From the human T2T-CHM13v2.0 reference genome, Homo sapiens: a stretch of 64,000 bases of DNA. The position numbers and the translations under genes were made by a program. The stretch lies in the NCBI RefSeq assembly GCF_009914755.1, contig NC_060942.1; one strand, written 5' to 3'. Shown one piece after another: positions 31,471 through 62,837 of this stretch. How positions within the stretch are numbered: the first letter of the stretch is position 1; each line of letters begins with the position of its first letter. The notes beneath the pieces are model-generated. The model was not told the origin of the DNA and searched no databases. It was given only the letters and a program-made list of their open reading frames with translations.

Positions 31471-34400
31471 TAGCTAAAATGCTCCAGGAAGAAATGAGGC
31501 AAGAAGAATGAATTGACAAGGAGAGATACCTGCAATAGCAGAAAGACAATGGTGATGATGATGATGATAGTTAATATTTATTAATTACTTTCTAGCATCA
31601 AGGATTTTACTAAGCATTTTTATGTATCACCTTATTTAATTTTTCATGTGTTTAATTTTTCATGTATTACCTTATTTAATCCTCCAAATACTATGATGTA
31701 GATATTATCATTCCCATTTAGACAATTACACAGGTTAAGACATCCAGGAATTTGCAAGCAAGATAAATAAAGAGAAATCCACACTTAGACACATTACAGT
31801 GAAACTATCAAAATTCAAAGATGAAGAGAGAATCTTAAAAGCAGCCAGAGAAAAAAAGATGGCAAAATAATGACATTGACAGACAAACTAAAACGGAGAA
31901 TTGGTCGCCCAGGGACCCTCACCAAAGCAAATTCTAAAGGATATTATTCAGGCAGAAGGAAAGTAATCCTAGAAGGAAAGTTTGAGAGACAAGAAGGAAT
32001 GACAAGCAAAGAAAGTGGTAAATATCCAAGCAAATGCAAATAAACATTGGTTGTATAAAATAGTGACAATATTATGCATAGGGGTTAGGGAAACCCCAAC
32101 AAGATCCATTTAAAATGCCAGAAAACACAGTATATATATATATATGTCAGAGGGAGGGTAAATGGAATTAATTGGCTCAAAAGTTACTACCTTTTCAGGG
32201 GGAGCGTGATGAGGGTTGGAATAAGCTTAGACTTTGATAAATTCTAAATTCTAGGATAAATATAAAAAATTCAAACTTGTGGAGGAAAAAAATTGGAGTA
32301 ACAAAAGTTGCTTAGACTTGCATATGCATGTATAAAGAAAAGCAAGAATGTAATTACTATAAAAAGCAAGGATATAATTACTATGAAAATCAGAATAGTG
32401 TTACCTTTAAGCAGGAGGTATCTGTATCCCTGTGACCTGGAAGGCATGCAGAGAGTTTCTGGGATACTGGTAAATTTTTGTATCTCAGGTTGGGTGGTGA
32501 TGCAGTAGGTGTGAGTTTTATCATTGTTTTTTTAAATGTACAAGTATATTTAATGTAGTTTTATGTTTGCATGTTTTTTTAAGTAATTAATTAAAAAAAT
32601 TAATTAAAAAGCAAATAACCTGAGGTTGAGATGAGCAGATTCCAGGAACATTCTTAGGGTAAAAATAGGCAAGAGAAAGTATTAATGGAGTTGAAAACAA
32701 AGTCACCTACATTTAGCAACGTGTCTTTGATGAGTGGCTTTATTTACTGACACTTTTCCTAAAACTGAACATGTATAACTGAACAAAAGTGACAAAGATC
32801 TCTGCCCTGCGGATCCTAGAGCGGGGGACAGATAGTAAACCAGTTTTAGTATTCTCCTGTAATGTTGCTTATTGCTAAAGCAGGAGGGGTCAGGAAATCA
32901 AGTCCCTTTAGAGAGACACCAATAAAACTGCTGGTTTGATTTATATGAGACCAGTCGAAGGGGTAGCTTTTAAGTCCCTCCTGTCTGTAGAAGGTATAAT
33001 TCCATGATTGTTGTGAAGTTTGTGACCAAAAAGCATTATAATAGTAAGAGCAAGAATCAGCTATAGCCTCAAATTTCTGAAAATGACCTCAGAATTTCAT
33101 CTCAGAAAGAGCTTGGCAATGAAACAAAAGACATACAAATCAAAAGTGGAAAACAGCTCCAGGAAAATTTTGATTATCTTGAATAAGAAGGCATCCAGAG
33201 CTGTAGCAGAAAAACTAATTTTGCTGAAAACACAGACAATAAAGGCGTGAAAGTCCTGGTGGAAAAGGAACTGTGTTTCAAATGTGTTCAGGTTGATATT
33301 AGGCTAATATTGTGTGTCCAGGCTTGGACCTCTAGGATCTGGGTTCCCGGGATTGGCTGCTATCCTACCGAGTAGAGTGACCGGATTTGTACCCAATGTG
33401 CTCCAGCCTTCCTGAGCAAAATCAACCTTCATGAGCGGATGCCAGCTGAAGGCTTGTCCTTAACCCGTCATCCAGCAAATCATTAAAAGAGGTTGTCAAA
33501 GACAATACAGATTTCCTCCAAGTCGTTTGCTGGATTAAAAACAATTCAGGGGACCATGAGGAAGCCAGAGTGGAAGGCCAGAACACAGCATGTTAGTGAT
33601 TCCAGGTCCAAGGTAAGCCTGAAAATTCAGCTCCGGCTTTCAGAACCCACTGGCCCATTCTGACACAGCCTATTCATTTATTTTAAATTATATTCTCCCA
33701 TTATGTATGCTGTGTCCGAATACCACTATGTGCTGGACAGAGCTCTGGGTGGTGTATTCTTTTGTGTAAATAGCATTTAGAACATTCGGTAATAAATTAC
33801 AGTCTACCAGATAACCCATATGTACTTACTGAGGGTGAACTATAGATTTTAAGATATTATAAGTCTTAGTCTTATCCTCAATATATTTACAAGCTATAGT
33901 TGGGAGCAAATATATTGATACAGTAACTGACTGAAAATAACAAAAGTTTCCATAAGAATTAAGTGATACATTTCATGATATGAACGATAATAAAACAGGG
34001 AGATTACTGAAAGTTTAAACTGGTCTGGGAGGTTTCATGGAAGTCTGAACTTGTGCCCGGATTATGAGTGTGGATTTGGAGGTAGTGTTTAAAGAAAAGA
34101 TAAGGGGCAGGTATCCTAGTGAGAGAAACAGTGTTCAGGCAGGAAAGAGTACGAATTTACTACCACATACCTAAATGTGCAGGTTTGGAGAGCAATGGGC
34201 TAGAAGGAACATGTCGTTTCTGCTAATTGGTTTCTTCAGCTGTGACTCCTAATATTTACTGTTTCATTTGCTCAATGCAAACTATGAAGTACTTGCTCAG
34301 AGTACATGGAGCAGCTGGGTTTCTGGAATCCATGTGTTTTGAGCCTATTTTCCTTTTAAGAATAGTACAGAATACATTTATTGCAGGAAGCTCTTTTCCA

Positions 34401-42400: not shown

Positions 42401-44585
42401 TTAAAATAGTTCAACTAAAGTATATATTCTAATCAACTGACATATTTGTTCACTAGTGATATGAATTGATTTTTAAGTCAGTGGAGTCAGTGGCTTATTG
42501 AGTGGTATTGTTTAGTACTAGTGAATCTTCCAACTCACGTAGGTTCCTTATAGCTAAGTGACCACCTGTCTTGTTTGCATGAGATACCGTTGTCTCTGAA
42601 ATTACTACTAGTGTTTCCTTTTGCTTTCAAAAGGAAATTTTGAAATGGATGGTAAAGTACATGAACACTCTACCTATACAGTCCTGGAAGCCATTGTTTT
42701 GGACTCTTTTTTGGACCAAATCTCTTCCCTAGATTTTTCATGCCTTTTTTGTAGTATAGGCCCCAGGGCTGTTTTTCTTTGCTTCAGTGGATTCCAATGG
42801 AAACGTTTTGCTGAAGAATGCATTTATAAAAGAATTTTAGAAATGATCAAAAAATTTTAAAATACATAATCTTCGCTCTTTTTCACCATTGAACACTCAG
42901 CACTTTGCACAATGCTTGGCTATCGTAGAGACTCCATAATTACTTGTTGAAGAATAAACAATTTAAAACTTAACCATTTTTTATTTAAGAAAATTCAAGT
43001 TTCTTCACACACACACTTTTCTTCCCAAAGATACTAAGCTACTGCATGATTACTCTTGGAATCATTGCTTAGTAAAATATTTCTCAAACATTGTTTGAAT
43101 AAAGATTACTTGGCATTTGGACAAACAGGACCAAAAGTCAGACTCCCAGATCCTGCCCCTGAGAGTCTGGTTTTGTCTCAGATAATGCCAGATAAATAAT
43201 AGGCATTCCATCTAGGATCCTCTCCAACTCCAAGTCTTTGAAATCTTTGTCTTACTTTAATTTCAAAAGGATATTTCCTTGACTTCCTACTAAGTTGTCC
43301 ATCTTTCTACCATGTCACTGCTGATAATGTAGTTGTGGAGAAGATATTAGACTGCATAAAAGCCAGGTTCCACCACATAACTGGCTTTTTACCACTTCCT
43401 CTCTCTGGACACAAATTTCCTCCACCTTAAAATGACATGGCTGAGCTACAAGATCTCTCGGATCTCTTGCAACTCTGTTATCAGGTGGTTCTTATCTTTG
43501 AAGCCTGATAGATGTCTGATCATGAGACATTTTCCACAAAAGAGTACAACTACTTTGTCTTTGTTGCTTCATTTGCAAGAAATAATCTCTGGATTAATTA
43601 TTACTTAAGAGATATTTTTAGTCTTTTAGGTTATTAAGCACCATTCTTCACCAACAACTTTCTGCATCAATTTTTTTTCAGATTCCCTAGATACGTGTAT
43701 TGGGAGGTGATTGGTATTTTTTTTTTCATTTCAGAGGTTAAAAATAATCTCTTAACTTTTGCCAATTGTCTTTTAGATCCTGCCAAAGATATTTCTACAG
43801 ATAAGAAAAAAGCCTTTGCCTTGGAGTATAATTTGCAAAAGTTGAAAGAGCCTTGTTTGCTCACATACCCTGTTATTAAATCATAAGCACAATCAGAAGT
43901 AATTGCTTGGGTGGCCATGCCAATTGGAGCCCACAAGATGGGAAGAAAAAGGGACCCTGGTGAATACATGTGCAGAGATTTGTTCATCAGATTAACTATC
44001 TTGTGGTGTATTGAGGCTTGAGGAAGGCTAAGCCATGTCATATTAATTTTTTTCAGAAGCAGAGAGAGAGAGAGGGAGAGAGAGAATAGACTGGAAAAGT
44101 TGTAGAGCATGGAAAGGTCCCCAAGAAGGTCAAGACTTGATGAGCAGTGGGTGGTGAGCCTCTAAAAGTTGTTTCCTCTGAAAGTTTTTTCCTCTTATTG
44201 GAGGAAAAGACAATCACATGTGGTTAGAAAAGAAGCAACAGAAACATTCACTTATACCAGAATTCTGTTCCTGTCTTGGGCTGTTCTTGAGGTCAGAAGG
44301 AAGAGTCCTGAGAAGTGATGTGACAGGGGAGAGAAGGAAGAAATGTATCTGACTGCAGTTTCTTTCTACTAAGCAGGCTGCTTGGGGAGGAGTATTGAGA
44401 GTGTAGTCACAGAGGTGGCATTGATTTTCTTGTGCCTTTACGTGATTACTTAACACCGCAGGTGTTAAGGTGGGTGGATCCCATGTAAAGAATAATTATT
44501 TATTATTTAGTCTAATCCACACTGGCACTGATGTCTCATAGTTGATTTACTATTAATCAACTCAATTATTTCTCAAGATTTTAGG

Positions 44586-44593
44586 TATAAAGG
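44586..44593 (+). promoter_or_regulatory. TATA box of the DYNAP-like gene
   Basis: TATAAAGG begins 67 bp upstream of a strong-Kozak ATG (agaATGG at 44653). Confidence 0.7.
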
Positions 44594-44652
44594 GCAATGA
44601 AGAGGCTGGAAAACGTTTCTGGAGTTAAGCTTGTGATATTTGCAGTTCAAGA

Positions 44653-44709
44653 ATGGACAGAAAACATGGGAAATACATAGTGAACATTGAACACTCTGGA
44701 AACCAGCCA
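44653..44709 (+). CDS. DYNAP-like type II mucin, coding exon 1 (MDRKHGKYIVNIEHSGNQP)
   Basis: 19 codons, strong Kozak, donor CCA|GTGAGT at 44710 (phase 0); close to the recalled DYNAP segment MDRKHGKYILNVEHSENQP. Confidence 0.88.
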
Positions 44710-51758: not shown

Positions 51759-51923
51759 CCTTTCCTGAGTCCAAGAAACCATGAAGCTCACAATTCAGCA
51801 TGTCAATTCTCTACATCAACTGAAATAACTGGTGATGTTGGTACTAATTTAATTGGTGCCTGCACCAGCCCAGCGACCCTTGAACACTCAGAATTTCCAA
51901 ACAGAGAATTCCAACATTATCAG
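51759..51923 (+). CDS. DYNAP-like type II mucin, coding exon 2 (PFLSPRNHEAHNSACQFSTSTEITGDVGTNLIGACTSPATLEHSEFPNREFQHYQ)
   Basis: Polypyrimidine tract plus TAG acceptor (51757-58), 165 nt = 55 stop-free codons, donor CAG|GTAATA; aligns without gaps to the recalled DYNAP middle segment (EAH...C...IT.DV..NL.G.C..P..L.HS). Confidence 0.88.
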
Positions 51924-53723: not shown

Positions 53724-56700
53724 GTGACACGAAATTTCTTCTGTGACTGGTCTCTATGGAAAACCTTTCTGGCTTGTCTCTTAGCCTGTGTGATAACGAC
53801 AGCAATTGGAGTACTCATAGTATCCCTGGTATATAATGGGAAAAATAATAATGCCTCCATTGTTATCCAATTTCCCCAAAGCCATGGAACACCCTCATCT
53901 GCCACTGGAATAACCTCATCTATAGTTTCTCAACCTACTGTTGCCACTACTATAATAAATTCTACCACAAAATCCACTTCACCTAAACCTACTATTATAA
54001 GAACCACTGCAAGCACTTCTATAGAACCTACCAGCACAATGACCTCCAATAATACTTCAGCTGCAACTACAATATCACCAGCCACCACTTCAGCTGAAGC
54101 CACAGCCACAGCAACAGCAGGAATTTCCACAGAAGCTACAACCAAAACAGCCACCACTAACACTTCCACTGAATACACATCCGCAACAACAACGAGCAAT
54201 GCAACTGAACAGTCCACCACAACAACTGCAGGCACTTCCACCGAGTCTACAATCACAACAGCCACCACTGCCACCTCTACTGAACCCACAACCACAACAA
54301 CAGCCAGTAGTGCAACTGAACAGTCTGCCACCACAACTGTAGGCACTTCCACTGAGACTACAACCACAACAGCCACCACTACCACGTCTACTGAATCCAC
54401 AACCACACCAGTCAGCACTGCAACTGAACAGTCTGCCACCACAACTGCTGGCACTTCCACTGAGATAACAGCCACAACAGCCACCACCACAACCTCTACT
54501 GACTCCACAGCCACAACAACAGCCAGCACTGCAACTGAAAAGGATGCCACTACAAATGCAGGCACGTCCACTGAGGCTACATCCACCACAGCCACCACTA
54601 CCACTTCTGCTGAACCCACGACAACCACAGCAAGCACAGCAACTGAACAGTCTGCCACCACAACTGCTGGCACTTCCATTGAGACTGCAACCACAACAGC
54701 CACCACTGCCACCTCTACTAAACCCACAACCACAACAACAGCCAGCACTGCAACTGAACAATCTGCCGCCACAACTGCTGGCACTTCCACTGAGGTTACA
54801 ACTACAACAGCCACCACTACCACTTCTACTGAATACAGAATGACAACCACAGCAAGCACTGCAACTGAACAGCCTGCCACCACAACTCCAGGCACTTCCA
54901 CTGAGGCTACAACCACAGCAACCACCACAACCACTTCTACTGAGCCCACAACCAAAATGACAGCCAGCATTGCAACTGAACAGTCTGCCACCACAACTGC
55001 AGGCACTTCCACTGAGGCTACAACCCCATCAGCCACCACTACCACCTCTAATGAACCCACAACCACAACAGCCAGTACTGCATCTGAACAGTCTGCCACC
55101 ACAACTACTGACACTTCCGCTGAGGCTACATCCACAACAGCCACCACTACCACATCTACTGAACCCACAATGACAACCACAGCAAGCACTGCAACTGAAC
55201 AGTCTGCCACCACAACTGCAGCCACTGCTACTGAGACTACATCCATAACAGCCACCACTGCCACCTCTACTGAACCCACAACCACAACAGCAGCTAGCAC
55301 TGTGACTGAACAGTCTGCCACAAGAACTGGAGGTACTTCCACTGGAGTTACAATCACAGCAGACACCACTGCCATGTCTACTGAACCCAGCACTACAACA
55401 ACCGGCACTGCCAGTGAACAGTCTGCCACCACGACTGCAGGCACTTCCATTGAGGCAACAACCACAACAGCTACCACTACCACCTCTACTGAACCCAACA
55501 CCACCACAACAGCCAGCACTGTAACTGAACAGTCTGCCACCACAACTGCAGGCACTTCCACTGAGACAACAGCCACAACAGCCACCACTACCACTTCTAC
55601 TGAACCCACAATGACAATCTCAGCAAGCACTGCAACTGAACAGCCTGCCACTGCAACTGCAGCCATGGCCACTGAGACTACAACTACAACAGCTACCACT
55701 GCCACCTCTACTGAACCCAGAACCACAACAACAGCCAGCACTACAACTGAACAGTCTGCCACAACAACTGGAGGTACTTCAACTGGAGTTACAACCACAA
55801 CAGCAACCACTAGGACCTCTACTGAACCCAGCACTACGACAATTGGCACTGCGACTGACCAGTCTGCCACCACAACTGCAGGCACTTCCATTGAGACTAC
55901 AACCACAACAGCCATTACTACCACCTCTACTGAACCCACCACCACCACCACAACAGCCAGCACTGTAACTGAACAGTCTGCCACCACAACTACAGGCACT
56001 TCCATTGAGACAACAGCCACAACAGCCACCACTACAGCTTCTACTGAACCCACAATGACAACCACAGCAAGCACTGCAACTGAACAGCCTGCCACTGCAA
56101 CTGCAGCCACGGCCACTGAGACTACAACTACAACAGCCACCACTGCCACCTCTACTGAACCCACAACCACAGCAGCCAGGACTGTAACTGAACAGTCTGC
56201 CATCACAACTGTAGGCATTTACACTGAGACTACAACCCCATCAGCCACCACTACCACTTCTACTGAACCCACAACCACAACAACAGCCAGCACTACAGCT
56301 GAACAGTCTGCCACCACAACTGCAGGCACTTCCACTGAGACAACAACCACAACAGCCACCACTACCACATCTACTGAACCCACAATGACAACCACAGCAA
56401 ACACTGCAACTGAACGGTCTGCCACTGCAACTGCAGCCACTGCTACTGAGACCACAACCACAATAGCCACCACTGCCACCTCTACTGAACCCACAACCAC
56501 AACAACAGCCAGCACTACAACTGAACAGTCTGCCACAACAACTGGAGGTACTTCAACTGGAGTTACAACCACAACAGCAACCACTAGCACCTCTACTGAA
56601 CCCAGCACTACGACAATTGGCACTGTGACTGACCAGTCTGCCACCACAACTGCAGGCACTTCCATTGAGACTACAACCACAACAGCCATTACTACCACCT

Positions 56701-57185
56701 CTACGGAACCCACCACCACCACAACAGCCAGCACTGTAACTGAACAGTCTGCCACCACAACTGCAGGCACTTCCATTGAGACTACAACCACAACAGCCAT
56801 TACTACCACGTCTACTGAACCCACCACCACCACAACAGCCAGCACTGTAACTGAACAGTCTGCCACCACAACTACAGGCACTTCCACTGAGACAACAGCT
56901 ACAACAGCCACTACTACCGCTTCTACTGAACCCACAATGACAACCAGAGCAAGCACTGCAAGTGAACAGTCTGCCACCACAACTGCAGCCAGGGTCACTG
57001 AGACTACAACTACAACAGCCACCACTGCCATCTCTACTGAACCCACAACCACAACAACAGCCAGGACTGTAACAGAACAGTCTGCCATCACAACTGTAAG
57101 CACTTACACTGAGACTACAACCCCATCAGCCACCACTACCACTTCTACTGAACCCTCAACCACAACCAGCCAGCAGTGCAACTGA
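53724..57185 (+). CDS. DYNAP-like type II mucin, coding exon 3: CLLAC-motif TM segment plus Thr/Ser/Ala tandem-repeat ectodomain
   Basis: Acceptor ttccAG|GTG; 1153 codons open; hydrophobic FLACLLACVITTAIGVLIVSLVY (53766-53834); then 27 in-frame repeat units; TGA follows a frameshift at ~57168. Confidence 0.85.
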   Translation: MTRNFFCDWSLWKTFLACLLACVITTAIGVLIVSLVYNGKNNNASIVIQFPQSHGTPSSATGITSSIVSQPTVATTIINSTTKSTSPKPTIIRTTASTSIEPTSTMTSNNTSAATTISPATTSAEATATATAGISTEATTKTATTNTSTEYTSATTTSNATEQSTTTTAGTSTESTITTATTATSTEPTTTTTASSATEQSATTTVGTSTETTTTTATTTTSTESTTTPVSTATEQSATTTAGTSTEITATTATTTTSTDSTATTTASTATEKDATTNAGTSTEATSTTATTTTSAEPTTTTASTATEQSATTTAGTSIETATTTATTATSTKPTTTTTASTATEQSAATTAGTSTEVTTTTATTTTSTEYRMTTTASTATEQPATTTPGTSTEATTTATTTTTSTEPTTKMTASIATEQSATTTAGTSTEATTPSATTTTSNEPTTTTASTASEQSATTTTDTSAEATSTTATTTTSTEPTMTTTASTATEQSATTTAATATETTSITATTATSTEPTTTTAASTVTEQSATRTGGTSTGVTITADTTAMSTEPSTTTTGTASEQSATTTAGTSIEATTTTATTTTSTEPNTTTTASTVTEQSATTTAGTSTETTATTATTTTSTEPTMTISASTATEQPATATAAMATETTTTTATTATSTEPRTTTTASTTTEQSATTTGGTSTGVTTTTATTRTSTEPSTTTIGTATDQSATTTAGTSIETTTTTAITTTSTEPTTTTTTASTVTEQSATTTTGTSIETTATTATTTASTEPTMTTTASTATEQPATATAATATETTTTTATTATSTEPTTTAARTVTEQSAITTVGIYTETTTPSATTTTSTEPTTTTTASTTAEQSATTTAGTSTETTTTTATTTTSTEPTMTTTANTATERSATATAATATETTTTIATTATSTEPTTTTTASTTTEQSATTTGGTSTGVTTTTATTSTSTEPSTTTIGTVTDQSATTTAGTSIETTTTTAITTTSTEPTTTTTASTVTEQSATTTAGTSIETTTTTAITTTSTEPTTTTTASTVTEQSATTTTGTSTETTATTATTTASTEPTMTTRASTASEQSATTTAARVTETTTTTATTAISTEPTTTTTARTVTEQSAITTVSTYTETTTPSATTTTSTEPSTTTSQQCN

Positions 57186-58780
57186 ACAGTCTGCCACCAC
57201 AACTGCAGGCACTTCCACTGAGACAACAACCACAACAGCCACCACTGCCACTTCTGCTGAACCCACAATGACAACCACAGCAAGCACTGCAACTGAACAG
57301 TCTGCCACCACAACTGCAGCCACTGCTACTGAGACCACAACCACAGCAGCCACCACTGCCACCTCTACTGAACCCACAACCACAACAACAGCCAGCACTA
57401 CAACTGAACAGTCTGCCACCAAAACAGTAGGCATTTCCACTGAGGCTACATCCACAGCAGTCACCACTGCCACTTCTACCAAGACACCCACCATGACAAC
57501 CACAGCAAGCACTGCAAGTGAAGAGTCTGCTACCACAACTGCAGCCACTGCCCTGAGACTACAATCACGACAACCACCACTACCACTTCTACTGTACACA
57601 CAATGAGAACCACAGCAAGCACTGCTACTGAACAGTCTGCCATTACAACTGCTGACACTTCCACTGAGGCTGCAACTACAACAGCAACCACTACCACCTC
57701 TATGGAACCCACAACCACAACAACAGCCAGCACTACAACTGAACAGTCTACTGCAACAATTGAAGGTACTTCCACTGGAGTTACAGCCACAACAGACACC
57801 ACTGCCACAACAACTGGGGGTATTTCCACTGCAGTTACAACCACAACAGACACCACTGCCACGTCTACTGAACCCAGCACTACAAACTCCAGCACTGCAA
57901 CTGAACTGTCTCCCACCGCAACTGCAGGCACTTCCACTGAGGCTGCAACCACAACAGTCACCACTACCACCTCTACTGAACCCACCACCACAACAGCCAG
58001 CACTGTAACTGAATAGTCTGCCACCACAACTACAGGCACTTCCAATTAGACAACAGCCACAACAGCCACCACTACCACTTCTACTGAACCCACAATGACA
58101 ACCACAGCAAGCACTGTAACTGAACAGTCTGCCACCAGAACTGCAGGCACTTTCACTGACACTTCTACCACAATAGCCACCACTGCCACCTCTTCCGAAT
58201 CCAGTAGTAGAACAACACCTGGCACAGCAACTGAACAGTCTGCCACAACAACTGCTGGCCTTTCCACTGAGACTACAACGACCACAGCCACCACTACCAA
58301 CTCTACTGAACCAAGCACTACAACAGCAGCCAGCACTACAACTGAATAGTCTGCCATAACAACTGCAGGCACTTTCTCTGAGGCTACAACCACAACAGCC
58401 ACCGCTACCAACTTTACTGAACCCACAACCACAACAACAGCCAGCACTGCAACTGAACAGTCTGCTACAACAAGTGCAGGCACTTCCACTGAAGCTACAA
58501 CCACCACAGCCACCACTGCCATCTGTACTGACCCTGAAACCACAACAACAGCCAGCACTGCAACTGAACAGTCTGCCACAACAACTGCAGGCACTTCAAC
58601 TGATACTGCTACTGCAATTACCACCACTGCCACCTCTGCTGAGCCGGGCACTACAACAGCCAGCATTGAAATGGACCAGTTTGCCACAAGTGCAGCAACT
58701 TCTGCTGAGTCTTCAACCACATTGGCCACCACCACTGCTTCCTCAGAAATCACCACTTCAATCCAACAAGCCACCTAATT
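54204..58780 (+). repeat. Coding-type tandem array, ~41 units of mostly 111 bp (108/114 variants), consensus TEQSATTTAGTSTETTTTTATTTTSTEPTTTTTASTA
   Basis: 'actgaacagtctgccaccacaact' anchor recurs at 54204, 54315, 54423, 54534, ... 58563, 58671. Confidence 0.95.
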
Positions 58781-61150
58781 GCCAGCACTTTTACTGAGGC
58801 TGCCACCATGGTGAGCACTACTACGTCCTCTACTTGATCTACAACACCAATAGCAACCAGTATCTCCATTGAAACAGCCACCATAATAACATCAGGCCCT
58901 TCCACTGTGGCTACAATTACAACAGCCACCACTCTCCCTTCTACTGTACCCATAAGCACAATAGTAGCTAGCACTGAAACTAAACAGACTACCACAATGA
59001 CTGTGGGTACTTCCATAGTGGGTACAACCAAAATTGCCACTGCTAATGCCCTCACTGAGTATACAACCACAATAGTAGCCATGATGCCCACTGAACAGAC
59101 TAGTGCAACTGCAGGGACTTCCACTGAGTCATCAATCACAATGATCCCAACTCTGCTTCTACAAAATCTTCAACCACAACTACAGCCACCAGTTCACCTG
59201 AACTGACCACCACAACAACTGCAGGCACTCCGACTCAGGCTACAACCACAAAATCCCCATTACTACTTCTACTGAACCCACTACTCCAACAGCATCCACC
59301 ACTTTGACTGAACTAAACCTGGAAAACAGAAATAGCCACCATTTTTACTACGGTCATTACCATAACAATCATAGGCAGCATTTCTACTAGCCTGTAAGTA
59401 TAAGAGCCAGGACAATTGCTTCAAAAGAACCAATTATCACAACAGCAGCCATTCCTTCAATTTGACCACAAACCACACAACCATATATAGCACTTCAGCT
59501 GAATTTAACAGAACAACAACATGGACCTCATCTAATGAGTGTGTAGATGCAATTGGTAGTGCTACCACTTTTTTTTTTTTTTTGAGACAGAGTCTCACTC
59601 TGTTGCCCAGGCTGGATTGCAATGGTGCCACCTCTGCCTCCTGAGTTCAAGCGATTCTCCTGCCTCAGCCTCCCAAGTAACTGGGACTACAGGCATGTGC
59701 CACCACGCCTGGCTAATTTTTTGTATTTTCATTAGAGATGGGGTTTCACCATGTTATCTAGGATGGTCTCAATCTCCTGACCTCGTGATCCACCCGCCTC
59801 AGCCTCCCAAAGTTCTGGGATTACAGGCATGAGCCACTACACCTGGCCTGCTACCATTTTAAATAAGCTAATAACCACAACAGCAGCTGCTACTTTAACC
59901 GAAGTTACTATAAGGACACCTACTGGTAGCACCTCATCTGAACGTGTCAGCATAATTGTGAGCACCATTTCTTAATCCAAACTTATCACTGTAACTTCAA
60001 GCTTTGTTCCTTCAACTGAATACATTACTGCTATCACAATTATCTTTTCAATTGAGGCCACAGCCATGACAACCAGGTTCATATTAACTGAGTCTACGAC
60101 CATTGTAACTTTTTACTGAATCTACTATCATAAGATTAACAGTTTCACTCATTGGTATCCACAGTGGCCAAAACTCCCACTTCAGTTAAAGCTACAACTA
60201 CCTAAATCATCCAACAACTTTAACTCAACCCTGAATTACTCTCATATCAAATGAACCTACAAATGACTATTACTTTAACAAAATCATCAGGCACTACTAC
60301 CAGCACTTTAATTGAATTTACAACCCTCACAATAGCTACCTCCAACTCAGTTACTGAATCTATTCTGTTTTCTGATACAACTAAAACATCATCTTTAACC
60401 TCCACTGACACCAACTCAACTAAATGAAAGCCAACACATACACTACTAACTCAACTGACTCTTCGATCACAACTCCCTAGCAATGTCAGCTCAGTTTACA
60501 ATCTCCATGAGCATCATTACCTGTTAATAGAAAATGCAATTACAGTTTCTACATAATCTGCTATCATAATACTGCCAGCTCTTCCATGGCCCCTTCAAAT
60601 GAGTCCCTTCATAGCCACAGCAACCATGCCACATCAGCAAAATGTGCTACTCCCATGACATCTACTGAAATTTCACAATAGAGACCACATTTCTACTCTA
60701 TGTACTCCTACAACAGACAAAACTTTACTGAACCTTTTAGTACCCTATCACTGGAATCTACAAGCATCACAATTTCTATTAGCATGTTATTCAAAGTCAT
60801 TCAGTGCTTATTCATAAATGCAACACTATCATTTTTTTCTAGTAAATTGACTAAGTCAGATTACTACTCTCACTTGACAAAAATGACAACTTTCTAATGA
60901 CCTATTCCTGGGGCAACTGTGGTTAGTATACCTAGAAATTAAATCCTAACATGTACTATCCTCATTCCTACACCAGATATACCAGATTCTGTATCAACCA
61001 TCAATACCATAGGGAATTCTATGGCCAGTATCAGTGCCAACATATAACTCCAAAAACGTGGGGTTATAGTGGTTACCAGAAACAACCACTTCTAAAACAA
61101 GACTTACTTATTGACCAGTTCAGCTATTACTACCATGACAATGAAGTCAT
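57186..61150 (+). pseudogene. Decayed continuation of the mucin exon (now presumably 3' UTR)
   Basis: Same repeat with a 1-bp deletion ~57552, TAG at 58014/58047/58347, TAA 58776, then increasingly divergent ACN/TCN-rich sequence on both sides of an Alu. Confidence 0.8.
59569..59848 (-). mobile_element. Alu (AluSc-like, small internal deletion) inserted in the decayed mucin exon
   Basis: Reverse Alu with 'ggatggtctcaatctcctgacctcgtgatc'; TSD tgctacca at 59560 and 59849. Confidence 0.95.
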
Positions 61151-61675: not shown

Positions 61676-61963
61676 GGCCAAGCACAGAGGCTCACATCTG
61701 TAATTCCAACATTTTGGGACCCTAAGACAGGAGGATTGCTTAAGGTCAGGAGTTTAAGACCAGCCTGGACAACAGGGTGAGACCCTGCCTCTATAAAAAA
61801 TAAAAAAATTAGCTGGGCGTGGTGGTGCACACCTGTAGTCCCAGCTACTCGGTAGGCTGAGGTGAGGGGATTGCTTGGCCCAGGAGCTCAAGGCTGCAGT
61901 AAGCTATGATTATGCCACTGCACTCAAGCCTGGGTGACAGAGCAAGTCTCTAAAAAAAAAAAA
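61676..61963 (+). mobile_element. Alu (AluJo/Jr-like)
   Basis: ggaggattgctt...ctcaaggctgcagtaagctatgat J-type features; TSD aaatgca. Confidence 0.9.
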
Positions 61964-62837
61964 ATGCAGATAAAAATACTTACAAATTTGGGTTCTGTTA
62001 TTTAGAATTCTTGGTAATTGACAGATTTAAATTAATGTTGATGGTACTTGCATTCCAGTGCAGTTCTACTGAATCAAAATCATCAAGGATGGGCCAGAAT
62101 TCCATATTTTTCAAAAAGTGTGTAGCCAGGGCTCATAACTACCCAATGAAGCGTTGAACTCAGGAGGACATTGTGACTTGTTACAGCTTTTGGATGGTGT
62201 TGATGAGATTGATATAAATCATCTAACAGTTTTTAAGCACTAAGAAAATTCAATCACTTTTTGGTGTTACTGCTATGTATAAACAAAAGACGGCGGTATA
62301 CAGGCACTTCACTTGAGCACGTGGTTGGGAGTGGGAGTGAAAATGCTTTATTTACCAAAAAAAGTGTTCTCAAGAAATTTAAAACAAAGATTTTGATAGC
62401 CTTTATGCTACTTAGAAATCATATTTAACTTTTTTTAATGTCATTCCTATAAAAGCGTTTTCCCCCCATTTTGCTAGCCTGCTGCCATTATATGCAATTA
62501 ATTTAACAAAACTGTATTCAAATGCTTTAATTCTATTTCTTTCCTTTCTTCATTATATTTTCAATTAGTATTACTTTATTATTAAATGTATCACTGATTA
62601 AACTTTTCTCTTTCTGCAAATTCTTTCACAGTAAATTTTAGTAAAAATTATAGTAAAATAAATTTTATTGGTTGTAACTTTTACTATTTTCTAGTTCTAC
62701 ATTTCTGCTGCTAATTAGGATGAGAAATGTTCCAGAGTAAATTCATTATGTAAATAAATACAAGTTTGTTTTTTTAAAAGATAGAAGATTTTCCTAGTTT
62801 AACACATTGTAGGTGCTTAATAGATATTTATTTAATG

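What the first reader, a model, noticed from the sequence alone, without database searches (positions are those of the whole stretch)
53724..61150. 5'-to-3' decay gradient: the mucin stalk looks trimmed by stops rather than the gene being killed
Seen: all unit-length changes before the break are multiples of 3 (108/111/114 bp) and none of the first 27 units' CAG/GAA/GAG codons became a stop. From ~57168 on there are two frameshifts, three TAGs and a TAA within ~14 units, and the following ~2.4 kb is far more degraded. Known: stops in a last exon escape exon-junction-dependent NMD. Inference: with the anchor at the N-terminus, each new stop only shortens the stalk. The ancestral exon may have encoded over 2,000 aa, and selection may keep only the proximal part open.
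Basis: partly seen in the sequence, partly recalled or inferred. Interest (0 to 1): 0.8.

Follow-up and report, generated by a model that had tools for sequence, protein, structure and literature searches.

The report
Frameshift-trimmed stalk of a DYNAP-like mucin
The last exon of a little-known human membrane gene carries a long threonine-rich repeat whose far end has been cut off by frameshifts and stops and is decaying, but the sequence alone does not show that selection keeps the remaining open part open.

Summary
The decay gradient is real. The last exon (53724-57185) encodes a CLLAC membrane anchor followed by 28 in-frame 111-bp Thr-rich units. A 2-bp deletion in unit 29 (~57167) creates the TGA stop at 57183. 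Units 29-43 carry one more frameshift and three TAGs. Units 44-49 carry five defects, and the sequence then fades into background by ~61.2 kb. No TAA was found.

The locus is the human orthologue of mammalian 'dynactin-associated protein-like', an old paralogue of DYNAP, which is a type II membrane protein. A stop in the stalk therefore leaves the anchor intact.

Statistical support is moderate:
- Neutral simulations give zero stops in the open units in 10-16% of runs.
- The 3-bp length changes sit at one slippage-prone run.
- Finding all five disruptions distal, given substitution load, has p of about 0.008-0.02.

Comparative evidence points to trimming rather than gene death. The N-terminus and anchor are conserved across mammals. 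DYNAP, two bat orthologues and a primate-like orthologue all appear to end at frameshifts inside the Thr-rich tail.

Against a live gene: HGNC calls it a pseudogene, a strong in-frame upstream ATG runs into a TAA, and no transcript 3' end is annotated. An ancestral protein of more than 2,000 aa is not supported.

The parts
33534..33612 (+). Exon 1 of the RefSeq model (5'UTR). It holds an upstream ATG in frame with the main ORF, in the context ACCATGA.
   Evidence: a uATG at mRNA position 23 opens a 35-codon ORF that ends at the TAA in exon 2. The donor is GT.
44578..44709 (+). Exon 2. The predicted start ATG is at 44653 (context AGAATGG). An in-frame TAA lies at 44626-44628 upstream of it. The ATG that DYNAP uses is ATT here.
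   Evidence: Models from bat, cow and whale start at the same MDRKHG. NG86 omega against DYNAP is 0.12 downstream of the ATG and 1.2 upstream of it.
51759..51923 (+). Exon 3: 165 bp, 55 codons, cytoplasmic region.
   Evidence: Canonical AG/GT splice sites. It is the same size as the 55-residue exon of DYNAP. Omega against DYNAP is 0.58 with dS 0.87.
53745..53834 (+). CLLAC-motif transmembrane anchor (residues 8-37 of exon 4).
   Evidence: Pfam PF15675, E=7.4e-16, 57.9 bits against a cutoff of 25. Nucleotide identity to the last exon of DYNAP is 80%.
53835..53996 (+). Juxtamembrane stretch with NNNAS, followed by non-repetitive Ser/Thr-rich sequence.
   Evidence: Translation. 89% identical without gaps to the unnamed orthologue P0002, running through unit 1.
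53997..57083 (+). Units 1-28 of the 111-bp (37-aa) Thr-rich array. All are in frame and open.
57084..57192 (+). Unit 29. A 2-bp deletion at ~57167 shifts reading into the frame where ACT GAR gives TGA. The stop is at 57183-57185, after 5 new residues.
   Evidence: Its closest copy is unit 21 (94.5%), which lacks the deletion.
57193..58679 (+). Units 30-43, cut off and lightly decayed. They carry a 1-bp deletion at ~57553 (unit 33), a half unit (unit 35, 54 bp), and TAGs at 58014, 58047 and 58347.
   Evidence: These units belong to the same unit subtypes as the open part: unit 30 matches unit 22 at 95.5%, unit 31 matches 23 at 96.4%, and unit 38 matches 19 at 94.6%.
58680..59313 (+). Units 44-49, heavily decayed: a 22-bp deletion, a TGA at 58835, and 1-, 1- and 5-bp deletions.
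   Evidence: Mean Thr+Ser is 0.525, against 0.60 upstream.
59314..61150 (+). Barely recognisable array remnant with an Alu-like insertion at about 59560-59852. A+C is 0.55-0.62 and relaxes towards background.
   Evidence: Weak unit-HMM matches up to 60486. Composition. Alu-like matches to neighbouring loci. The masked stretch is given in the hub's table.

Best explanation
What it is. This is the last exon of the human orthologue of mammalian 'dynactin-associated protein-like' (HGNC DYNAPP1, RefSeq model LOC124908007). That gene is an old paralogue of DYNAP. The predicted protein has a short cytoplasmic N-terminus, a CLLAC transmembrane anchor and an extracellular tail. The tail is a tandem array of 37-residue Thr-rich units and is presumably O-glycosylated.

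Why truncation is tolerated. The anchor lies upstream of the array, and the array sits in the last exon. A frameshift or stop inside it therefore removes only the distal stalk.

How the repeat produces clean cuts. In one alternative frame, every ACT GAA/GAG (Thr-Glu) pair reads TGA, about three times per unit. A -2 or +1 slip therefore ends translation within about a dozen codons.

The history I infer:
- An older cut near unit 44 left units 44 onward to decay.
- Later events inside units 33-40 shortened the ORF again.
- The youngest event, the 2-bp deletion in unit 29, set the present stop.
- Meanwhile the middle of the array kept duplicating as blocks of several units.

Shown: the anatomy, the gradient, family membership, and conservation of the N-terminus and anchor.

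Inferred: the type II topology (by homology), the stepwise order of events, O-glycosylation, and whether the open 28 units are now held open by selection. I put that last point at about even odds.
For: Anatomy and gradient:
-.
- Disruptions per kb run 0 (units 1-28, 3.1 kb), about 3 (units 29-43, 5 events) and about 8 (units 44-49, 5 events).

Placement of the disruptions:
- Exclusive branch lengths are 228 substitutions proximal and 140 distal.
- The chance that all 5 events fall distal is 0.38^5 = 0.008, or 0.02 if the long unit-1 branch is left out.

Stepwise order:
- The terminal branch of unit 29 is 0.0315 substitutions per site.
- Over the 1487 bp downstream that predicts 0.34-0.61 stops. 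Three are seen, giving p about 0.005-0.02 (arithmetic).

Family and topology:
- CLLAC domain, E=7e-16.
- Same exon layout as DYNAP: canonical splice sites and a 165-bp exon.
- dynAP is reported as type II with a T/S-rich, probably O-glycosylated C-terminus outside the cell (passages only).

Long-term constraint:
- No disruption in the 1,227 codons, although dS against DYNAP is 0.57-0.87.
- The sister copy DYNAPP2 has a 7-bp deletion, a lost splice donor and an in-frame stop.
- N-terminus plus anchor is 114 of 130 identical to the unnamed orthologue P0002. Human-only changes number 3, against 11 on the P0002 side, with 2 ambiguous.

Recurrent trimming in relatives:
- DYNAP's TAA is followed by about 300 nt that are T/S-rich only in another frame.
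- Bat models P0003 and P0006 end in His/Asn/Tyr-rich tails. P0002 ends 'FH' after about three units. I read these endings as out-of-frame Thr repeats.

Hidden stops: frame-2 stops occur every 33-39 bp, and all nine checked after the shift are TGA.
Against: - Stops alone do not reject neutrality for the open part. P(0 stops) is 0.16, and 0.127 or 0.096.
- Indel classes do not differ significantly. My count is 7:0 against 5:2.
- Thr+Ser content hardly differs between the open units (0.60-0.61) and the cut-off units 29-43 (0.60).
- Third-position excess is only modest: 0.22 against 0.14-0.155 proximally and 0.24 against 0.18-0.19 distally.
- The distal units show as many stops as full neutrality predicts (3 against 1.84). 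There is therefore no sign that they were ever protected.
- The locus is named a pseudogene by HGNC.
- Its 5' leader has three upstream ATGs. One is in frame, has a strong context, and runs into a TAA where P0002 reads Glu.
- The RefSeq model is predicted and ends exactly at the stop codon, so no 3' end is documented.
- The first poly(A) signals lie 3.7-4.6 kb downstream. A 3'UTR that long could itself destabilise the mRNA (recalled knowledge).
- No expression or peptide evidence was seen.
- Orthologue ends come from automatic gene models that may carry assembly errors in repeats. No orthologous DNA could be examined.
Confidence: 0.6

Rival explanations
1. The whole human locus is a recently dead pseudogene (DYNAPP1). 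On this view the 3.46-kb open frame is a leftover. It persists because Thr/Ala/Pro codons rarely mutate to stops, because slippage in the ACC/ACA runs is in threes, and because the central units are young copies.
For: - Only 0.73% of substitutions from the consensus unit give a stop.
- Neutral runs keep the open part free of stops in 10-16% of cases.
- A 762-aa ORF lies open on the opposite strand of the same array (53930..56218).
- Units 14-31 are 93-99% identical to their nearest copy.
- An in-frame upstream ATG runs into the TAA at 44626-44628, where P0002 reads Glu.
- HGNC names it a pseudogene.
- The RefSeq model has no 3'UTR.
Against: - All 5 nearby disruptions lie downstream (p about 0.008-0.02).
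- Using the local rate of frameshifting indels per substitution, about 3.6 frameshifts are expected in units 1-28 and none is seen. The rate is 6 events per roughly 381 substitutions in units 29-49; this is my estimate.
- Exons 2-3 and the anchor are intact with canonical splice sites.
- The human side has fewer replacements than P0002 (3 against 11).
- The start at MDRKHG is the one used in models from bat, cow and whale, so the upstream TAA need not be a defect.
Confidence: 0.3
2. The gradient is only the usual edge effect of tandem arrays. The centre is homogenised by unequal exchange while the edges drift. On this view the 3' part need never have been coding, and no trimming took place.
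For: - The 5' edge is diverged too: unit 1 has 38 and unit 2 has 20 differences from the consensus.
- Units 1-13 and units 32-43 have equal summed divergence (174 against 175, my sums).
- The youngest copies sit in the middle of the array.
Against: - Units 34-43 are in the exon frame and keep 3n lengths and Thr-rich codons.
- Units 29-31, 36, 37 and 38 belong to the same subtypes as open units, so the break lies inside the homogenised domain and not at its edge.
- At equal divergence the 5' flank has 0 disruptions and the 3' flank has 4.
- The 3' decay runs about 2.5 kb down to background composition, whereas only about 2 units at the 5' edge are strongly diverged.
Confidence: 0.07
3. The 2-bp deletion is private to this haplotype or is an assembly error. 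On this view the usual human ORF is several units longer, and the break position is not a species feature.
For: No direct evidence. Only one haplotype was available. VNTR exons are often polymorphic (general knowledge). The deletion is private to unit 29 and young.
Against: Even without it, the frame would be lost at the 1-bp deletion in unit 33 or at the TAG in unit 37. The gradient and its reading would therefore stand.
Confidence: 0.1

Closest known systems
DYNAP (dynactin-associated protein, dynAP), human chr18 paralogue about 40 kb downstream
   Same: - CLLAC anchor.
- Same exon layout: a 165-bp middle exon, and a last exon that starts just before the anchor.
- Shared MDRKHGKY motif.
- T/S-rich extracellular C-terminus.
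- Type II topology reported for dynAP.
- Its stop is also followed by out-of-frame T/S-rich sequence.
   Different: - DYNAP is 210 aa, with about 75 residues after the anchor, and has at most one to four degenerate unit-like stretches. The gene here has 28 open units and 1,227 aa.
- Nucleotide identity is only 69-80% in the exons and nothing aligns outside them, so the split is old.
'Dynactin-associated protein-like' gene models of other mammals (P0003 bat, P0004 cat, P0005 banteng, P0006 bat, P0010 beaked whale) and unnamed records P0001 and P0002
   Same: They are orthologous by sequence. They share PFLSPRNHEAH, the anchor and YNGKNNNAS. P0002 is 89% identical without gaps over 132 aa, running into unit 2.
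   Different: They are 165-410 aa, and the relevant part of P0001 is about 415 aa. Their tails are short or have a different period. None of the 36 representatives exceeds 408 aa and none was found above 2018 aa. The 111-bp array of 28 or more units is so far seen only in the human sequence.
Membrane-tethered mucins (MUC1, MUC21 and MUC22 type), the source of the RefSeq name 'mucin-22-like'
   Same: A Thr/Ser/Pro/Ala-rich tandem repeat encoded in one large exon, about 60% Thr+Ser, attached to a membrane anchor.
   Different: Classical tethered mucins are type I, with a signal peptide and a C-terminal anchor (recalled knowledge). A stop in their repeat would detach the protein, whereas here the anchor is N-terminal. 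No homology to MUC22 was tested or found. The only Pfam match is CLLAC.
'Mucinization': lineage-specific gain of exonic PTS repeats by non-mucin genes (Sci Adv 2022, PMC9417175; abstract and passages seen)
   Same: Lineage-specific expansion of an exonic Thr-rich repeat turns a small protein into a mucin-like one.
   Different: That paper does not mention DYNAP (0 occurrences). Its cases are secreted proline-rich precursors. In the passages seen it does not treat loss of repeats by stops or frameshifts (0 occurrences of 'frameshift' or 'premature stop').
Truncating variants in last exons that escape exon-junction-dependent NMD
   Same: The stop at 57183 lies in the last exon of the model, so the rule applies in principle (established knowledge, recalled; no paper read for it).
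   Different: The cut leaves a 3'UTR of at least 3.7 kb made of former coding repeats, which could trigger length-dependent decay. No transcript data were seen.

Membership tests
DYNAP / CLLAC-motif family (Pfam PF15675) | CLLAC-motif transmembrane domain above the Pfam gathering score | tested here: met
   E=7.4e-16, 57.9 bits against a cutoff of 25, covering profile positions 1-30 of 30.
DYNAP / CLLAC-motif family (Pfam PF15675) | DYNAP-type gene layout: a small first coding exon ending ...NQP, a 165-bp exon, and a last exon starting just before the anchor | tested here: met
   The 55-residue exon of dynAP is described in PMC8329785.
DYNAP / CLLAC-motif family (Pfam PF15675) | Type II topology (N-terminus inside, C-terminus outside) | not testable with these tools
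   Reported for dynAP. Assumed here by homology.
DYNAP / CLLAC-motif family (Pfam PF15675) | Orthology to the 'DYNAP-like' lineage rather than to DYNAP itself | tested here: met
   PFLSPRNHEAH and YNGKNNNAS are shared with the -like models. DYNAP-type proteins (P0017, P0026) instead read PITHPNDQEAH-like and NNKGS.
Mucins (functional class) | Tandem exonic repeats rich in Pro/Thr/Ser | tested here: met
   28 open 37-aa units with about 60% Thr+Ser. Proline is sparse, about one per unit.
Mucins (functional class) | Dense O-glycosylation of the repeat | not testable with these tools
   There is only the report that dynAP's T/S-rich region migrates anomalously, 'most likely' because of O-glycosylation.
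Mucins (functional class) | The protein is made and reaches the cell surface or secretions | not tested
   No expression or proteomic data were seen. DYNAPP1 appears only in one search listing, and the term is not in the held text of that paper.
MUC22 homologue (as the RefSeq name suggests) | Sequence homology outside the low-complexity repeat | not tested
   No comparison with MUC22 was run. The non-repeat parts match the DYNAP family.
Unitary or duplicated pseudogene (HGNC DYNAPP1) | Disabling lesions in the coding frame or splice sites | tested here: not met
   From ATG 44653 there are no stops or frameshifts in 1,227 codons, and all sites are GT/AG. The TAA and lost ATG lie upstream of the start used by non-primate orthologue models. 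DYNAPP2, by contrast, has three lesions.
Unitary or duplicated pseudogene (HGNC DYNAPP1) | Neutral evolution on the human branch | tested here: inconclusive
   3 human-only against 11 P0002-only replacements in 130 sites argues against long neutrality. The divergence time of P0002 is unknown and no DNA was available for dN/dS.

The most novel reading that the evidence does not exclude
The human or ape lineage has built a large membrane mucin of an unusual kind out of a small DYNAP-like protein. It is anchored by its N-terminus (type II), is 1,227 aa long and is filed as a pseudogene. Its length is set by a built-in trimming device. The Thr-Glu codon pairs hide a TGA in one alternative frame three times per unit, so replication slips in the array yield clean, anchor-retaining truncations instead of toxic read-through. 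Central duplication and distal trimming together would make stalk length a fast-evolving, selectable trait. The same process would have produced the short tail of DYNAP itself.
Probability: 0.22. Interest if true: 0.65.

Novelty: new variant of a known kind. Interest (0 to 1): 0.4.

Why it matters
If the open frame is translated, humans carry an unrecognised type II membrane mucin that the curated catalogue lists as a pseudogene. It sits beside DYNAP, whose over-expression transforms cells and which is reported in oesophagus and spleen.

The locus also gives a clean natural example of how protein topology decides whether a stop in a repeat exon kills a gene or merely shortens it.

It also carries a practical lesson. 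In Thr-rich repeats a multi-kilobase open frame, and even a 762-aa antisense one, is weak evidence of selection. Claims of this kind need divergence-normalised tests and orthologues.

Tried and rejected
I used an ML tree without ancestral states, forward simulation from the unit consensus and a star model (a first version timed out).
- Literature searches:
  - 'DYNAP' plus 'mucin' gave 72 papers, and none of the 15 listed was relevant.
  - 'LOC124908007', 'DYNAPP1' or 'mucin-22-like' gave 9 papers. Eight concern other animals. One is a cancer expression list whose held text lacks the term.
  - From these searches I found nothing in print on this locus as a mucin or on its trimmed array.
- The mucinization paper does not mention DYNAP.
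- The array has no second copy in the genome. All 11 matches fall inside the window's own array.
- Paralogous flanks do not align beyond the exons, so the array could not be bracketed against DYNAP.
- Amino-acid composition did not separate open from cut-off units.
- The codon-position contrast is weak.
- No relative longer than 2018 aa was found. The tool itself calls that weak evidence.
- A reading that the upstream TAA proves pseudogeny was set aside, because non-primate orthologue models start at the same downstream Met and DYNAPP3 shares the TAA.
- No structure prediction or complex prediction was run. The protein is low-complexity and such predictions would add nothing.

Full report
**What is there**

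The window is human chr18. The RefSeq model LOC124908007 has canonical GT/AG sites at all junctions and a 3,684-nt CDS, giving 1,227 aa plus the stop. Its last exon opens 21 nt before a hydrophobic segment that matches the Pfam CLLAC domain (E=7.4e-16).

A short Ser/Thr-rich stretch follows, and then a tandem array of 111-bp units. TRF reports 33.5 copies at 54105-57808 and 7.8 more at 57802-58658. An nhmmer segmentation with the unit consensus gives 49 recognisable units between 53997 and 59313. Weaker matches run to 60486.

The array is unique in the genome. All 11 matches to a 663-bp probe lie inside it.

**Checking the observation**

Units 1-28 are 108, 111 or 114 bp long (28 of 28 are multiples of 3), and frame 0 is open from 53724 to 57182.

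The disruptions in units 29-43 are as follows:
- Unit 29 lacks 2 bp at about 57167. Translation then reads five new residues and stops at TGA 57183.
- Unit 33 lacks 1 bp at about 57553. The two shifts sum to -3, so units 34-43 are back in the exon frame.
- In the unit frame there are three TAGs, at 58014 and 58347 (both CAG>TAG) and at 58047 (GAG>TAG).
- There is no TAA. The other frame-0 stops between 57183 and 57519 are all out-of-frame TGAs.

Units 44-49 add a 22-bp deletion, a TGA and three small frameshifting deletions. They differ from the consensus at 21-44 positions each.

A+C content falls from 0.70-0.75 (to 58.5 kb) to 0.64-0.66, then to 0.55-0.62, and reaches background after about 61.2 kb. 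C is replaced by T along the way. An Alu-like element sits in the remnant at about 59.56-59.85 kb.

The gradient is therefore real, with about 0, 3 and 8 disruptions per kb before the sequence becomes unalignable.

**Is it more than chance?**

Stops.
- The consensus unit has only four codons one step away from a stop. Rate-weighted, 0.73% of substitutions create one.
- In a star model, each unit received its observed number of changes. Zero stops occurred in 12.7% of 2000 runs for 27 units and in 9.6% for 28 units.
- I also simulated along an ML tree of the units (HKY, kappa 3.55), starting from the consensus. That gave a mean of 3.3 stops and zero stops in 16% of 4000 runs.
- The distal units are expected to hold 1.84 stops, and 3 are seen (P of 3 or more = 0.24).
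- An unselected control points the same way. The opposite strand carries a 762-aa ORF across units 1-21.
- The absence of stops is therefore not significant by itself.

Length changes.
- The 3-bp length changes all sit at one ACC/ACA run, which suggests slippage.
- By my count from that alignment, in-frame versus frameshifting indel events are 7:0 proximally and 5:2 distally. This difference is not significant.

Placement of the disruptions.
- Exclusive branch lengths are 228 substitutions for units 1-28 and 140 for units 29-43.
- The chance that all five disruptions fall in the distal share is 0.38^5 = 0.008, or 0.02 without the long unit-1 branch.
- The two flanks of the array are equally diverged. 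Units 1-13 and units 32-43 sum to 174 and 175 differences (my sums), yet hold 0 and 4 disruptions. By branch length the p value is about 0.04.
- The local rate of frameshifting indels per substitution is about 0.016. This is 6 events per roughly 381 substitutions in units 29-49, my estimate.
- At that rate about 3.6 frameshifts are expected in the open part, and none is seen.

This support is moderate, and it was obtained after the pattern had been noticed.

**Where the break lies**

The middle of the array (units 14-31) consists of young copies, 93-99% identical to their nearest relative. Units 17-23 are repeated as units 24-31. The pairs are 17/24 at 98.1%, 18/25 at 99.1%, 21/29 at 94.5%, 22/30 at 95.5% and 23/31 at 96.4%.

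The present stop therefore lies inside the actively duplicating domain, and the 2-bp deletion is private to unit 29.

The short terminal branch of unit 29 (0.0315 substitutions per site) predicts only 0.34-0.61 stops in the 1,487 bp downstream. Three are present, giving p about 0.005-0.02. This is my arithmetic, and branch lengths from 111-bp units are noisy.

At least some distal lesions are therefore probably older than the present cut. That is what stepwise shortening predicts.

**What the gene is**

The T2T assembly could be searched, and two paralogous anchor exons turned up downstream: DYNAP and DYNAPP2.

DYNAP shares the exon layout and the MDRKHGKY motif. Identity is only 69-80% in the exons, and nothing aligns outside them. 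dS is 0.57-0.87, so the split is old.

Passages of two papers describe dynAP as follows (PMC8329785 and PMC4540312):
- It is a 210-aa type II membrane protein.
- It has a T/S-rich, probably O-glycosylated C-terminus outside the cell.
- It is expressed in oesophagus and spleen.

Protein searches found 27 shorter relatives, one 801-aa fused model, 36 cluster representatives of 93-408 aa, and none longer than 2018 aa.

Several models named 'dynactin-associated protein-like' (bats, cat, banteng, whale), together with the unnamed records P0001 and P0002, share PFLSPRNHEAH, the anchor and YNGKNNNAS with the window's protein. The window therefore holds the human orthologue of an old eutherian DYNAP paralogue.

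**Dead or alive?**

For long-term function:
- There are no lesions in 1,227 codons despite the old split.
- DYNAPP2, by contrast, has a 7-bp deletion, a lost splice donor and an in-frame stop.
- Omega is 0.12 in the first 19 codons and 0.58 in exon 3.
- Against P0002, 114 of 130 N-terminal and anchor residues are identical. Human-only changes number 3, P0002-only changes 11, and 2 are ambiguous, using seven other proteins as reference.

The two 'defects' relative to DYNAP are ATG>ATT and a TAA at 44626-44628. Both lie upstream of the Met at which the bat, cow and whale models start. DYNAPP3 shares both.

Against present function:
- P0002 reads Glu where the human sequence has TAA.
- The model's leader has an in-frame upstream ATG in a strong context that runs into that TAA, plus two out-of-frame upstream ATGs.
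- The RefSeq model is predicted and ends at the stop codon.
- The first poly(A) signals are 3.7-4.6 kb downstream.
- I saw no expression or peptide data.

**Trimming elsewhere in the family**

- DYNAP's TAA (L004:2251) is followed by about 300 nt that are T/S-rich (0.48-0.62) only in another frame. Unit-like HMM matches lie on both sides of it.
- Bat models P0003 and P0006 end in His/Asn/Tyr/Phe-rich tails.
- P0002 ends 'FH' after about three units, of which unit 1 and the start of unit 2 align gaplessly with the human sequence.
- I read these endings as Thr repeats translated out of frame. Human 'ACT TCC ACT GAG', shifted, reads TTC CAC TGA.

These are automatic gene models without DNA, so assembly errors cannot be excluded.

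**Mechanism**

With the anchor upstream and the array in the last exon, any stop removes only distal stalk.

In one alternative frame, each ACT GAA/GAG pair gives TGA every 33-39 bp. A -2 or +1 slip therefore truncates within about a dozen codons. The other alternative frame stays open for 100-400 bp, which fits the longer odd tails of the bat models.

The cut-off part then drifts neutrally while the centre continues to duplicate.

**On '>2,000 aa'**

The remnant spans about 7.15 kb, or roughly 62 unit equivalents once the Alu is subtracted. However, the decayed tail is much older than the central copies, and no relative is long. A protein of more than 2,000 aa at any one time is not supported.

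**Limits**

- No orthologous DNA, no second human haplotype and no transcript data were available.
- Supplements of the cited papers were not opened.
- The NMD rule and the type I topology of classical mucins are recalled knowledge.

Noticed in passing
L004:2251-2565 (chr18:54801251-54801565, DYNAP last exon and 3'UTR): DYNAP's own stop codon is followed by about 300 nt that are Thr/Ser-rich only in a different frame, and unit-like HMM matches lie on both sides of the stop. The tail of the expressed paralogue therefore also looks truncated by a frameshift.
   Followed up: partly
L007:8150-8360 and L005:2084-2800 (DYNAPP2): DYNAPP2 is a clearly broken copy. It has a 7-bp deletion in the exon-3 homologue, a donor changed from GT to AT, and an in-frame stop at codon 70 of the last exon. 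About 160 further Thr-rich codons follow in the same frame.
   Followed up: partly
window 33534-33612 and 44578-44652: The model's 5' leader holds three upstream ATGs. The first has the context ACCATGA, is in frame with the main ORF and ends at TAA 44626-44628. The unnamed orthologue P0002 reads Glu at that codon and has an N-terminal extension. DYNAPP3 also has the TAA.
   Followed up: partly
P0001 (residues 1-30 and 469-498) and P0028 (residues 39-67): A CLLAC anchor also precedes two cupin domains, in a bird protein and in the upstream half of a fused mammalian model. The neighbouring CUPIN1P pseudogene and the DYNAP family therefore seem to share one kind of N-terminal anchor. This hints that the DYNAP family arose from the anchor part of a cupin gene.
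   Followed up: partly
window 53930-56218, minus strand: A 762-aa open frame lies antisense to the array. It is a by-product of the A+C-rich composition and a warning that ORF length means little here.
   Followed up: yes
window 57167 and 57553: The 2-bp and 1-bp deletions sum to -3, so the original frame is restored for units 34-43. Only 386 bp are actually out of phase.
   Followed up: yes
window 59560-59852 and 61685-61979: Two Alu-like elements match each other's relatives in the neighbouring loci at 72-80% identity. The first is inserted in the decayed part of the array, which was therefore non-coding (or UTR) when the element landed.
   Followed up: no
window 55758-57414: The array has a higher-order structure. 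Units 17-23 recur as units 24-31, with unit 26 an extra copy of unit 25. Identity per unit ranges unevenly from 93.5 to 99.1%, which suggests later gene conversion at the 5' end of the block.
   Followed up: partly
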